Source: Myxococcota bacterium
Lineage (GTDB): Bacteria > Myxococcota > XYA12-FULL-58-9 > JALHOP01
Assembly (NCBI GenBank): GCA_041288095.1
Contig: JBGGMJ010000110.1
Location: 1 to 19,512 of the forward strand
Direction: 5' to 3'
Length of the DNA: 19,512 nt
A program made the position numbers and the translations under genes. Each line of letters starts with the position of its first letter. Position 1 is the first letter of the stretch. The notes beneath the pieces are model-generated. The model made no database searches. It saw only the letters and a program-made list of their open reading frames with translations, and was not told the origin of the DNA. This document shows, piece by piece, positions 18,801-19,512 of the stretch.

Positions 18801-19512
18801 CCAGGTCGGCGAAACGCGACTCGAGCTCGGCGTCCGAGAGGGTCTCGGGCTGCACGACGTGAATGTTGGCGCCTTGCGCGAGCAGGGCTTCGCGCATCGC
18901 CTGACGGAAGACGGCGTCCGATCCGACGAGCACGACGTGACGACCGGCGATGCTGCGCGCCGGCTCCGCTTGCGGGATCTGAACGGCGGCTACGGTGCGA
19001 GCGGCAAACCCCTTGGCTTGCGCTAACGTGTCACGCAGCGACAGTGCTTTCGCGGCTGGGCTTTGCGACTTTGTCTGCGCTGCAACGCTCGCCTTCGGCG
19101 CTGCAGCCTGGGATTTTGGGCTTTGGGGGCCCTCCACCGGCGGCGGCGCTTGCGGAGCGTTCAGACCGGCGAGGACGTAATCGACGACGGCGTCGAGCGT
19201 CTGCACTTGGGTGAGCTTGAAGTTTTCGTCCTTGGCGAGACTGTAGCGCTCGCGGACCAGCGACATGATCTCGGCTTGCTTGACCGTGTCGATGCCCAAG
19301 TCGGCCTCGAGCTGATACGTCGGTTCGAGGTCGCTGGGCTCATAGCCCGTCTTCTCCACGAAGACGTTCATGATCTCTTGGAAAAGCTCATCGCGTGATT
19401 TGCTGGGCTTGGCGGCAGCCGGAACAGGTGCCGAAGCGATCTCGGCAATCCGAGCCGGTGCTATGGCCGCAGGTGCCGAAACCGCCTTCCGTGCTTCATT
19501 CAGAGTTTTTTT
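15868..19512 (-). CDS. 5'-truncated PfaA-like iterative type I PKS/FAS: ACP-KR-DH-PPTase
   Basis: Frame is open from the window end through an Ala/Pro linker. ACP KTGY...[15 protein letters not shown] (~19170-19400); KR TGGARGVT, GNAGQADYSASN (~17590-18950); DH HRLDGVALLP and HGPVFQ (~16670-17480); Sfp-type PPTase WLAGR, SISHS, GIDVE, WAVKEAVVKALG (~15920-16610). Any KS/AT domains would lie outside the window. Confidence 0.9.

What the first reader, a model, noticed from the sequence alone, without database searches (positions are those of the whole stretch)
19170..19400. ACP with threonine at the phosphopantetheine site, in cis with its own PPTase
Seen: the ACP reads TGY...[15 protein letters not shown], with codon ACG at 19287-19285. 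Established: carrier proteins are phosphopantetheinylated on a conserved Ser, and PfaA ACPs read roughly DLGIDSIKRVEI. The rest of the domain looks intact, and the residues after the site also differ (VKQAE), which suggests a distinct subfamily rather than decay. I recall similar DTVKQAE motifs in uncharacterised PfaA-like synthases but cannot verify this. Inference: a synthase family using Thr-linked phosphopantetheine, loaded by the co-evolved PPTase fused at its C-terminus. This would be non-canonical carrier chemistry. ACG is one base from Ser TCG, so a sequencing error or inactivating mutation is possible.
Basis: partly seen in the sequence, partly recalled or inferred. Interest (0 to 1): 0.82.

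Follow-up and report, generated by a model that had tools for sequence, protein, structure and literature searches.

The report
Lipid-synthase carrier domains using threonine
The carrier domain of this fatty-acid/polyketide-type synthase has threonine where every studied carrier protein has the serine that holds its cofactor arm, and this is a conserved trait of a large, multi-phylum bacterial enzyme family rather than an error, which suggests an untested threonine-linked form of a textbook protein modification.

Summary
Codon ACG at 19287-19285 (minus strand) puts Thr at the canonical Ser position, the first residue of helix II, in a confidently modelled ACP fold.

It is not a sequencing error or decay:
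- In related genome loci, 179 of 182 ACP sites are Thr, written with all four Thr codons.
- A 91%-identical full-length homologue has four ACPs, all Thr.
- In an unbiased profile search, 106 of the top 150 representative proteins are all-Thr.
- No other Ser or Cys is conserved in the domain, and no free-standing ACP lies within about 10 kb.

The gene belongs to a PfaA-like clade that matches the uncharacterised "Type R" secondary-lipid synthases. These sit in an operon with acetyl-CoA carboxylase parts and a dedicated Sfp-type PPTase, found in 47 of 48 loci with enough flank.

My best reading (about 0.6) is that Thr is the real phosphopantetheine acceptor, loaded by the cluster's own PPTase. 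This is inferred, not shown.

Most Thr synthases have a separate PPTase gene, and a collinear sister protein carries the same fused PPTase with Ser ACPs.

Ten literature searches found no report of Thr at this site.

The parts
15868..19512 (-). 3' part (1214 codons plus stop) of a PfaA-like multidomain synthase gene. The 5' end lies beyond the window.
   Evidence: ORF and translation. Pfam finds KR, PS-DH and ACPS. TIGR02813 PfaA gives a partial hit of 205.7 bits, below its 1010.1 cutoff. The 91%-identical full-length homologue L001:4937-14251 (3104 aa) reads KS-ACP-AT-KS'-ACP3-KR-DH-PPTase.
19156..19413 (-). Last ACP domain of the array (residues 34-119 of P0001).
   Evidence: PF00550 at 21.2 bits. 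PDB alignments. AF2 model pLDDT 89.7. Foldseek best matches are ACPs, TM 0.83.
19285..19287 (-). Codon ACG = Thr76, at the position of the phosphopantetheine-bearing Ser (first residue of helix II).
   Evidence: Sequence ruler. Alignment to the Ser of solved ACPs. Helix II starts at this residue. Thr at 179 of 182 homologous sites in loci, coded by ACG 106, ACC 54, ACT 15 and ACA 4.
19414..19512 (-). Ala/Pro-rich linker coming from the preceding (unseen) ACP repeat.
   Evidence: Translation. The homologues P0004 and P0117 have further Thr-ACP repeats upstream of the equivalent linker.
17713..18360 (-). Ketoreductase domain (residues 385-600).
   Evidence: Pfam PF08659 KR, 86.8 bits.
16657..17466 (-). 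PKS-type dehydratase domain (residues 683-952).
   Evidence: Pfam PF21089 at 44.6 bits and PF14765 at 49.6 bits.
15871..16620 (-). C-terminal two-lobed Sfp-type 4'-phosphopantetheinyl transferase domain (residues 965-1214). It carries GIDVE (G122/D124/E126 of the domain) and WAVKEAVVKA (W161/K164/E165/K169).
   Evidence: Pfam ACPS at 59.8 bits and a weak sub-threshold 4PPT_N hit (19.6 bits, cutoff 27). PDB hits to AcpS, the fungal FAS PPT domain and human AASDHPPT. Motifs are invariant or nearly so in 61 family PPTases. AF2 pLDDT 93.9. Foldseek best matches are 2cg5, 4mrt (Sfp), PptAb and PptT.
14306..15868 (-). Acyl-CoA carboxylase carboxyltransferase gene. Its likely ATG overlaps the synthase stop codon (TAATG).
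   Evidence: Pfam Carboxyl_trans at 604.5 bits. Overlap read. The same gene follows the synthase in L001, L007 and L073, and a multidomain ACC follows it in L014, L015 and L061.

Best explanation
The window holds the 3' half of an iterative PfaA-like lipid/polyketide synthase. By the 91%-identical homologue, the full architecture is KS-ACP-AT-KS'-ACP3-KR-DH-PPTase. Its tandem carrier domains belong to a large clade in which the cofactor-bearing Ser has been replaced by Thr.

I propose that the Thr hydroxyl is the genuine acceptor of 4'-phosphopantetheine, giving O-phosphopantetheinyl-threonine. The group would be transferred from CoA by the cluster's own Sfp-type PPTase, which is fused here and is a separate operon gene in most relatives. 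The holo-Thr-ACPs would then carry malonyl and acyl thioesters exactly as Ser-ACPs do. The co-encoded acetyl-CoA carboxylase parts would supply malonyl-CoA.

A plausible pay-off, which is speculation, is insulation. A housekeeping AcpS-type enzyme does not load Thr, so the synthase would be activated only by its own PPTase.

Shown: the Thr, its position in an ACP fold, its family-wide conservation, the lack of any alternative nucleophile or carrier, the catalytically intact co-located PPTase, and Ser/Thr interchange within single arrays.

Inferred: that the Thr is modified, that the dedicated PPTase does it, and the insulation idea. The product of the synthase is unknown.
For: 1. Position. The Thr aligns with the Ppant Ser of solved ACPs and starts helix II of a confident ACP model.

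2. Purifying selection on Thr.
- 268 Thr against 31 Ser among 299 ACP sites in the 113 homologues. Of these proteins, 101 are all-Thr, 12 all-Ser and 0 mixed.
- 179 Thr against 3 Ser sites in the 67 loci (of 79) where ACPs are visible, using four synonymous codons.
- In the profile search of 1.84 billion representatives, which was not seeded with a Thr motif, the top 150 of 7992 hits split into 106 all-Thr, 38 all-Ser, 2 mixed and 4 not scored by my pattern.

3. No substitute nucleophile. In 238 unique Thr-ACP domains no Ser column exceeds 15% and no Cys column exceeds 4%.

4. No substitute carrier. An ACP-profile scan of 11,195 ORFs of 60 aa or more, from all 79 loci plus the window, found only pieces of the synthase arrays. 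The close homologue's four ACPs are all Thr.

5. Complete machinery around it. KS, AT, KS', KR and DH are present, with ACC parts, an acyl-CoA-dehydrogenase-like or PfaD-like reductase, and a PPTase in the operon. A PPTase is present in 47 of the 48 Thr-bearing loci that have at least 9 kb downstream. Its Mg-binding and catalytic residues are invariant or above 90% conserved.

6. Ser and Thr interchange at the same column inside one array: L023 is S-T-T-T, L006 is S..T-T and P0257 is S-T-T. A collinear Ser sister, P0194, exists. The Thr domains therefore descend from working ACPs and sit among them.

7. On a KR-region tree, all 48 Thr-bearing rows lie on one side of one branch.

8. The model of PPTase + CoA + Mg + ACP supports binding with score 0.88 against a best control of 0.46. 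That mark was reached by 116 of 157 solved complexes and 2 of 215 mismatched pairs. The runs share at least 98% of contacts and partner pLDDT is at least 88. The interface includes ACP residues 42-44 and PPTase E126, W161 and E165. Similar PPTase-carrier complexes are solved (4mrt, 1f80, 2cg5, 6rcx), so this pass may reflect likeness only.
Against: - No experiment on any member was found, and no call shows a modified Thr.
- In E. coli, ACP(S36T) 'cannot be post-translationally modified by 4'-PP' and does not complement an acpP deletion (PMC3340395, passages read). A canonical PPTase therefore rejects Thr.
- The Ser sister P0194 has the same fused PPTase, so nothing yet marks this PPTase as Thr-adapted. 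The family-typical interface residues (D138, aromatic 139, R176, D178) were compared with only three Ser-type sequences.
- The locus set was gathered with a pattern that contains the Thr (EADLGIDT), and one search uses words from the query. Those T:S ratios are biased upward.
- My site counts rest on regular expressions, which gave one false positive (L052, a KS motif).
- The tree branch that separates Thr from Ser rows has SH-like support 91. It is a FastTree run and is not starred.
Confidence: 0.62

Rival explanations
1. The Thr domains are permanently apo 'pseudo-carriers'. They would act as spacers, scaffolds or docking modules. The growing chain would ride on a Ser-ACP encoded elsewhere, such as the housekeeping AcpP, and the cluster PPTase would serve some other substrate.
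For: S36T abolishes modification of E. coli ACP (PMC3340395). A degenerate seventh repeat with Ala exists in P0143, so dead repeats can persist. A few arrays keep one Ser repeat that could be the only live one (L023, L006, P0257).
Against: 64 of the 66 Thr-bearing loci have no Ser repeat at all. No free-standing ACP lies within about 10 kb. The exact PPTase-recognition surround DLG[IV]D-T-VKQ is invariant or nearly so across phyla, which a spacer would not need. Thr itself is kept through synonymous changes rather than drifting to Ala, Gly or Asn. A dedicated, catalytically intact PPTase accompanies the synthase in 47 of 48 loci.
Confidence: 0.2
2. The Thr carries something other than standard phosphopantetheine, or is acylated directly as an oxoester. 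Possible groups include a dephospho-CoA-type prosthetic group, as in citrate-lyase and malonate-decarboxylase ACPs, or another phosphodiester. Either case would be a different carrier chemistry.
For: Nothing direct. It is raised only because Thr is unprecedented at this site and because the helix-II residues after it also differ from PfaA ACPs (VKQAE against IKRVE).
Against: The co-located enzyme is an ordinary Sfp-type PPTase by sequence, motifs and fold. The annotated flanks of 8 loci contain no CitG/CitX- or MdcB/MdcG-like genes. KS, AT, KR and DH are standard thioester-handling domains.
Confidence: 0.06
3. The Thr in this window is a local sequencing or assembly error (TCG read as ACG), or a recent inactivating mutation in a decaying gene.
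For: ACG is one base from TCG. Reads could not be inspected.
Against: A 91%-identical independent assembly has Thr in all four ACPs. The nearest metagenomic homologue, P0004, has Thr in all three. Thr occupies 179 of 182 sites in the loci. The ORF is open for 1214 codons with all domains scoring normally.
Confidence: 0.01

Closest known systems
'Type R' secondary lipid synthase clusters of Shulse & Allen 2011 (PLoS One 6:e20146; PMC3098273, passages read).
   Same: The paper describes a pfaA homologue with KS-MAT-CLF-ACP(3-6)-KR followed by a PPTase gene. An acetyl-CoA carboxylase gene lies between them in Koribacter. The clusters occur in Acidobacteria, Elusimicrobia and Chloroflexi, and the product is unknown. 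The family found here has the same domain order, the same PPTase and ACC association, and loci from Solibacteraceae, Elusimicrobiaceae and Chloroflexia.
   Different: The paper does not mention the Thr: 'threonine' and 'serine' each occur 0 times in its text. I did not fetch the named Type R genes themselves. The window's subclade fuses the PPTase to the synthase and, in L001, has an extra ACP between KS and AT. The family also extends to Actinomycetota, Myxococcota and Gemmatimonadota.
PfaA of marine PUFA synthases (TIGR02813), with tandem ACPs reading DLGIDSIKRVEI.
   Same: Tandem ACP array followed by KR and a PKS-type DH. The fragment aligns with model positions 1593-2570 of TIGR02813. The linker-ACP-linker beads arrangement is shared, and the motif framework LEADLGID-x-[IV]K is shared.
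   Different: The score is 205.7 against a cutoff of 1010.1, so this is not a PfaA equivalog. It has Thr instead of Ser and VKQAE instead of IKRVE. It has a second KS-like domain before the array. Where annotated, the operon has ACC and an acyl-CoA-dehydrogenase-like gene, and no PfaB/PfaC-like gene was seen.
Collinear Ser-type sister synthases such as P0194 (3234 aa, unnamed representative).
   Same: Same order KS-AT-KS'-ACP4-KR-DH-PPTase. It is 32-47% identical to the L001 homologue over the whole length.
   Different: Its four ACPs read DLGIDSVKVAE, with Ser.
Enediyne PKSE and fungal FAS alpha subunit, which are synthases with a C-terminal cis PPTase. The PKSE architecture is recalled, not tested here.
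   Same: A PPTase domain is fused to the C-terminus of the synthase that it presumably activates. The fungal FAS PPT domain aligns with the second lobe of this PPTase.
   Different: Those systems use Ser-ACPs. As I recall it, PKSE has a single ACP and no second KS. The fungal PPT is a single AcpS-like lobe that works as an oligomer, whereas this one is a two-lobed Sfp-type domain.
Sfp-type (type II) PPTases: Sfp, human AASDHPPT, PptT, PcpS.
   Same: Two-lobe fold, with Foldseek E from 3.5e-12 to 1e-8. The motifs GxDxE and WxxKE(A/S)xxK are present.
   Different: Each lobe is closer in sequence to AcpS than to Sfp. Its presumed substrate site is Thr. Positions D138, aromatic 139, R176 and D178 are typical of the family.

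Membership tests
Carrier protein / PP-binding (PF00550) | Profile match at or above the curated cutoff | tested here: met
   21.2 bits against a cutoff of 20.8 for the isolated domain, which is marginal. In the full fragment it did not reach E<=0.01. The family profile hits 41 PDB carrier proteins and nothing else at E<=0.001.
Carrier protein / PP-binding (PF00550) | Small helical-bundle ACP fold with the attachment site at the N-terminus of helix II | tested here: met
   AF2 pLDDT 89.7, with helix II starting at the Thr. Foldseek TM 0.83 to the T. maritima ACP, and 8 ACP matches at E<=0.001.
Carrier protein / PP-binding (PF00550) | Conserved Ser as the phosphopantetheine attachment residue | tested here: not met
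   Thr (ACG) sits at the aligned column. No other conserved Ser or Cys is present in the domain.
Carrier protein / PP-binding (PF00550) | Actually carries 4'-phosphopantetheine | not testable with these tools
   This needs mass spectrometry or radiolabelling.
PfaA, omega-3 PUFA synthase subunit (TIGR02813) | Whole-protein score above the curated cutoff | tested here: not met
   205.7 bits against 1010.1. The query is a fragment, so this is partly a matter of length. The collinear part aligns.
Type R secondary lipid synthase (Shulse & Allen 2011) | pfaA homologue KS-MAT-CLF-ACP(3-6)-KR | tested here: met
   Tested on the 91%-identical homologue P0117, which reads KS-(ACP)-AT-KS'-ACP3-KR-DH-PPTase. 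The window shows only ACP-KR-DH-PPTase. The second KS keeps a Cys (NAACASG), so calling it 'CLF' is uncertain.
Type R secondary lipid synthase (Shulse & Allen 2011) | PPTase gene downstream, sometimes with an ACC gene in between | tested here: met
   The PPTase is fused here and the carboxyltransferase gene comes next. A PPTase is found in 47 of 48 Thr loci with at least 9 kb downstream, and ACC lies between in L014, L015 and L061.
Type R secondary lipid synthase (Shulse & Allen 2011) | The paper's own member genes (Koribacter, Solibacter, Elusimicrobium, Roseiflexus) group with this gene and carry Thr | not tested
   Those records were not fetched. Only loci from the same families or classes were seen (L014 Solibacteraceae, L073 Elusimicrobiaceae, L012/L043/L056/L071 Chloroflexia).
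Sfp-type 4'-phosphopantetheinyl transferase | Two pseudo-symmetric lobes of the ACPS fold | tested here: met
   AF2 pLDDT 93.9. Foldseek matches 2cg5, 4mrt and PptT/PptAb over 210-258 columns. Pfam finds ACPS plus a weak sub-threshold 4PPT_N hit.
Sfp-type 4'-phosphopantetheinyl transferase | Mg2+-binding Asp/Glu and catalytic Glu/Lys motifs | tested here: met
   G122 and D124 are invariant. E126, W161, K164, E165 and K169 are at least 90% conserved in 61 sequences.
Sfp-type 4'-phosphopantetheinyl transferase | Transfers Ppant to this ACP's Thr | not testable with these tools
   Only a structure-prediction pass is available: 0.88 against a best control of 0.46, a mark reached by 116 of 157 solved complexes and 2 of 215 mismatched pairs, with at least 98% contact agreement and partner pLDDT of at least 88. 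Similar solved complexes exist, so this shows likeness, not activity.

The most novel reading that the evidence does not exclude
A widespread clade of bacterial lipid/polyketide synthases uses O-phosphopantetheinyl-threonine instead of -serine. The clade has thousands of sequence clusters across Actinomycetota, Acidobacteriota, Chloroflexota, Myxococcota, Gemmatimonadota and others. Loading would be done by a dedicated PPTase lineage that accepts Thr. This would create a carrier system orthogonal to the cell's housekeeping AcpS, and possibly resistant to ACP phosphodiesterase. The supposedly invariant Ser of carrier proteins would then not be invariant, and a Thr-competent PPTase/tag pair would exist in nature.
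Probability: 0.55. Interest if true: 0.85.

Novelty: new variant of a known kind. Interest (0 to 1): 0.72.

Why it matters
Phosphopantetheinylation of a conserved Ser is a textbook constant of fatty-acid, polyketide and non-ribosomal peptide synthesis. Ser-to-Thr mutants are used as dead controls.

A natural family that keeps Thr at that site has two possible meanings. Either it adds a new acceptor residue to this modification, with a PPTase of new specificity that could serve as an orthogonal protein-labelling pair. Or it shows that a major class of tandem 'ACPs' works without the cofactor. Both outcomes would change how these very common soil-bacterial clusters are annotated. Automated tools that require Ser would call every ACP in them inactive.

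The question can be settled with one co-expression and mass-spectrometry experiment.

Tried and rejected
**Sequencing error or decay.** Rejected.

**Upstream Ser-ACPs.** The window ends inside the gene. The 91% homologue L001 shows four ACPs, all Thr.

**A trans ACP in the neighbourhood.** An ACP-profile scan of 11,195 ORFs found none. The profile was built from Thr-ACPs, so very divergent carriers could be missed. Pfam on 42 flanking ORFs from 8 of the 79 loci found no PP-binding protein, but several small ORFs in those loci were not submitted.

**A PPTase signature specific to Thr.** I compared 58 Thr-family PPTases with three Ser-type and two mixed-array ones at the predicted interface positions. 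The catalytic residues are identical. D138, aromatic 139, R176 and D178 are typical of the family, but three comparators cannot carry a claim.

**Literature.** All ten searches found no paper describing Thr at a carrier-protein Ppant site and no characterisation of this operon. The motif 'DTVKQ' occurs in 3 unrelated papers. The library lacks most subscription journals, so absence from print is not proven. PMC8436480 was checked for 'threonine' and holds only kinase text.

**Not used or not available.**
- The protein-atlas search, the listing of cluster members, the RNA tools and the third homologous-protein search were not used.
- Reads were not available.
The PPTase co-location rate for Ser-type clusters was therefore not measured here.

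One search failed on a frame error and was corrected. Script crashed and was fixed.
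Full report
**1. The observation**

The minus strand of the window carries one long ORF, 15868..19512, that runs off the window's end. It gives 1214 residues (P0001), beginning with an Ala/Pro-rich linker followed by ...[38 protein letters not shown]....

Pfam finds KR (residues 385-600), a PKS-type dehydratase (683-952) and a PPTase in the same ORF. 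The PPTase hits are ACPS at 59.8 bits and a weak, sub-threshold 4PPT_N hit at 19.6 bits against a cutoff of 27.

Scanned alone, the N-terminal domain just passes the PP-binding cutoff, at 21.2 against 20.8 bits. Pairwise and profile searches of PDB sequences align the Thr with the cofactor-bearing Ser of PigH ACPs, AcpM, mitochondrial ACPs and bacterial AcpPs. All 41 profile hits at E<=0.001 are carrier proteins.

An AlphaFold2 model built on 64 family sequences has mean pLDDT 89.7, and helix II starts exactly at the Thr. Foldseek returns ACPs, with TM 0.83 to the Thermotoga maritima ACP.

**2. Not an error: a family trait**

A word-seeded search with the ACP region returned 113 proteins.
- A motif count over them finds 299 ACP sites: 268 Thr and 31 Ser.
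- 101 proteins are all-Thr, 12 are all-Ser and none is mixed.
- In 238 unique Thr domains, the only strongly conserved features are TGY, LEADLG[IV]DTVKQAE and a Thr about 30 residues later.
- No Ser column exceeds 15% and no Cys column exceeds 4%.

Of these, 671 were confirmed as relatives and 79 loci were kept.
- ACPs are visible in 67 of the 79 loci; the other 12 are short or partial.
- 66 of the 67 carry Thr. 64 are all-Thr, 2 are mixed and 1 (L046) is Ser-only.
- The site totals are 179 Thr and 3 Ser, after discarding one KS-motif false positive in L052.
- The Thr is coded by ACG 106, ACC 54, ACT 15 and ACA 4 times, so the residue is kept while the codon drifts.

Both searches were biased towards Thr: one search uses words from the query, and one search used the pattern EADLGIDT. 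I therefore also ran the family profile, which has no word index, over 1.84 billion representative proteins.
- It gave 7992 hits at E<=1e-3, 5709 at E<=1e-10 and 2011 at E<=1e-30.
- Among the top 150, 106 are all-Thr, 38 all-Ser, 2 mixed and 4 not scored by my pattern. By domain the count is 408 Thr, 205 Ser and 1 Ala.

L001, from a Myxococcota assembly, is 91% identical and syntenic with the window. Its full gene (3104 aa, P0117) reads KS-ACP-AT-KS'-ACP-ACP-ACP-KR-DH-PPTase, and all four ACPs are Thr. There are therefore no hidden Ser-ACPs upstream.

**3. What the family is**

On a FastTree of the roughly 600 residues after the last ACP, I used 56 rows. These were all 8 Ser rows, both mixed rows, the window, and 45 of the 125 other Thr rows drawn at random, so 80 Thr rows were left out. 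All 48 Thr-bearing rows fall on one side of a single branch with SH-like support 91, which is not starred. The trait needs one change on this tree.

The window sits in a well-supported subclade (99*) of eight. It includes the PPTase-fused forms P0004, P0005 and P0007 and L006.

Annotating flanks in 8 loci showed a recurring operon:
- an acyl-CoA-dehydrogenase-like gene of about 550 aa, with ETF genes upstream in L014, or a PfaD/FabK-like reductase in L025;
- the synthase;
- acetyl-CoA carboxylase, either as a 1830-1860-aa BC-BCCP-CT fusion or as subunits;
- a PPTase.

In the window, the gene after the synthase is a carboxyltransferase (604.5 bits). Its ATG overlaps the synthase stop codon as TAATG.

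This matches the 'Type R' secondary-lipid clusters of Shulse & Allen 2011 (PMC3098273, passages read). They describe KS-MAT-CLF-ACP(3-6)-KR plus a downstream PPTase, with an ACC gene between them in Koribacter. The clusters are found in Acidobacteria, Elusimicrobia and Chloroflexi, and the product is unknown. That text never mentions threonine or serine.

The Thr-bearing loci here come from Actinomycetota (21), Acidobacteriota (14), Chloroflexota (10), Myxococcota (6), Gemmatimonadota (6) and several others.

The rest of the window (1-9997) holds housekeeping genes.

**4. The PPTase**

The C-terminal 250 residues contain GIDVE and WAVKEAVVKA. In an alignment of 61 PPTases from the Thr loci, G122 and D124 are invariant. 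E126, W161, K164, E165 and K169 are at least 90% conserved.

The model has pLDDT 93.9 and matches the two-lobed Sfp-type enzymes: human AASDHPPT, Sfp, PptAb, PptT and PcpS. In sequence, each lobe is closest to AcpS and to the fungal FAS PPT domain.

A PPTase is present in 47 of the 48 Thr-bearing loci that have at least 9 kb after the last ACP. The exception is L019, from Nonomuraea rosea. In the 18 loci with less flank, 8 show one.

Placement varies:
- 6 are in the same ORF as the ACPs.
- 25 start 2.7-3.1 kb after the last ACP. Most are separate genes just downstream, but a few large ORFs may be frame-shifted fusions.
- 24 lie 8.0-8.7 kb downstream. In the annotated loci L014, L015 and L061, the ACC gene fills that gap.

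A search for fused PPTase relatives found 17 proteins. Among the close ones, every visible ACP is Thr. P0125, whose PPTase is 38% identical, has a Ser ACP.

P0194 is collinear with the L001 protein (32-47% identity) and has the same fused PPTase, but its four ACPs are Ser, reading DLGIDSVKVAE. The fusion is therefore a lineage feature and not the correlate of Thr. The real correlate is a dedicated PPTase somewhere in the operon. By the literature, classical pfa clusters share that feature too.

**5. Mechanism**

The arrays occupy the place of PfaA's working ACPs. They keep the whole PPTase-recognition surround and have no other nucleophile. They are the only carriers near a complete set of KS, AT, KR, DH, reductase, ACC and PPTase genes: no free-standing ACP turned up among 11,195 ORFs.

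Ser and Thr also alternate at the same column inside single arrays. L023 is S-T-T-T, L006 is S..T-T and P0257 is S-T-T.

The simplest reading is that the Thr hydroxyl accepts phosphopantetheine from CoA, catalysed by the cluster's own PPTase.

A model of PPTase + CoA + Mg + ACP supports binding. The score is 0.88 against a best control of 0.46, a mark reached by 116 of 157 solved complexes and 2 of 215 mismatched pairs. The runs agree in at least 98% of contacts, and partner pLDDT is at least 88. ACP residues 42-44 lie against E126, W161 and E165. Because PPTase-carrier complexes are solved, this shows likeness rather than activity.

Against the reading:
- Nobody has shown it.
- E. coli ACP(S36T) cannot be modified and is non-functional (PMC3340395).
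- I found no convincing Thr-specific signature in the PPTase.

I put about 0.6 on Thr-linked Ppant, 0.2 on unmodified pseudo-carriers served by a trans ACP, about 0.06 on another modification, and about 0.01 on error.

**6. Novelty**

The gene family was catalogued in 2011, but its product and biochemistry are unknown. Ten full-text searches found no report of Thr at a Ppant site. Most subscription journals are not in that library, so prior description cannot be excluded.

I rate this a new variant of a known kind. It is a carrier-protein/PPTase system that departs from the defining Ser. It is surprising to a specialist and testable with one co-expression and mass-spectrometry experiment.

**7. 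Left unchecked**

- Reads at the site.
- The metagenome and viral contig collections, which were closed.
- The named Type R genes.
- Flanks of Ser-type clusters as a control.
- Any experimental modification state.

Noticed in passing
window 15866-15870 (minus strand): The synthase stop codon TAA overlaps the likely ATG of the carboxyltransferase gene (TAATG), which suggests translational coupling. The longest-ORF start at 16039 would overlap the synthase by 172 nt and is probably wrong.
   Followed up: partly
window 1598-2703 (+): An RsmD-like methyltransferase (PF03602) is followed by a 159-aa cytidylyltransferase-like protein (PF01467). It is probably CoaD, the phosphopantetheine adenylyltransferase of CoA synthesis. 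This pair is probably ordinary housekeeping and its nearness to the synthase a coincidence.
   Followed up: no
window 9990-14309 (-); L001:15063-20009: A 1439-aa FG-GAP/VCBS-repeat protein with an N-terminal hydrophobic stretch lies directly after the carboxyltransferase. It is syntenic in L001. Whether it belongs to the cluster is unknown.
   Followed up: no
L001:4937-14251 (P0117 residue ~552; ORF numbering 581): An extra Thr-ACP sits between the first KS and the AT, giving KS-ACP-AT. This placement is unusual, and the Acidobacterial and Actinobacterial members were not checked for it. The second KS-like domain keeps its Cys (NAACASG), so it may be a true KS rather than a chain-length factor.
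   Followed up: partly
L014:2550-20102, L015:3363-19212, L061:3027-20366, L037:3441-14877: A conserved operon recurs: an acyl-CoA-dehydrogenase-like gene (with ETF and an Fe-S/CCG protein upstream in L014), then the synthase, then a eukaryote-style single-chain acetyl-CoA carboxylase (BC-BCCP-central-CT, about 1850 aa), then the PPTase. The ACAD-like enzyme may act as the enoyl reductase.
   Followed up: partly
L023:768-10742 and L006:4025-13777: These are mixed arrays, with one Ser-ACP (DLGIDSVKQVE or DLGIDSIKQAE) beside two or three Thr-ACPs in one protein that also has a fused PPTase. L023 is labelled as a Thermoplasmatota (archaeal) bin, which suggests binning contamination or horizontal transfer.
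   Followed up: partly
P0143 (residue 1186) and P0012/P0026/P0029: In P0143, six Thr-ACPs are followed by a divergent seventh repeat with Ala at the site (DLGIDAVKQRA), probably a dead repeat. The Stigmatella, Corallococcus and Myxococcaceae proteins alternate two Thr-ACP subtypes (DTVKQVE and DTITQIE) within one array.
   Followed up: no
PPTase domain positions 138, 139, 176, 178 (window:15871-16620:-): At the predicted ACP interface, D138 (48 of 58), an aromatic at 139 (58 of 58), R176 (46 of 58) and D178 (47 of 58) are typical of PPTases from Thr loci. All four positions differ in two of the three Ser-type comparators and three of the four in the third. This may point to co-variation with the VKQAE helix, but there are too few comparators to say.
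   Followed up: partly
L001:2718-4043 (-): Three tandem bactofilin genes lie just upstream of the synthase in the close homologue. The corresponding region is outside the window.
   Followed up: no
L019 (Nonomuraea rosea, NZ_BAABDQ010000009.1): This is the only Thr-bearing locus with more than 12 kb downstream and no detectable PPTase. It is a cultured strain, and its PPTase may lie elsewhere in the genome.
   Followed up: no
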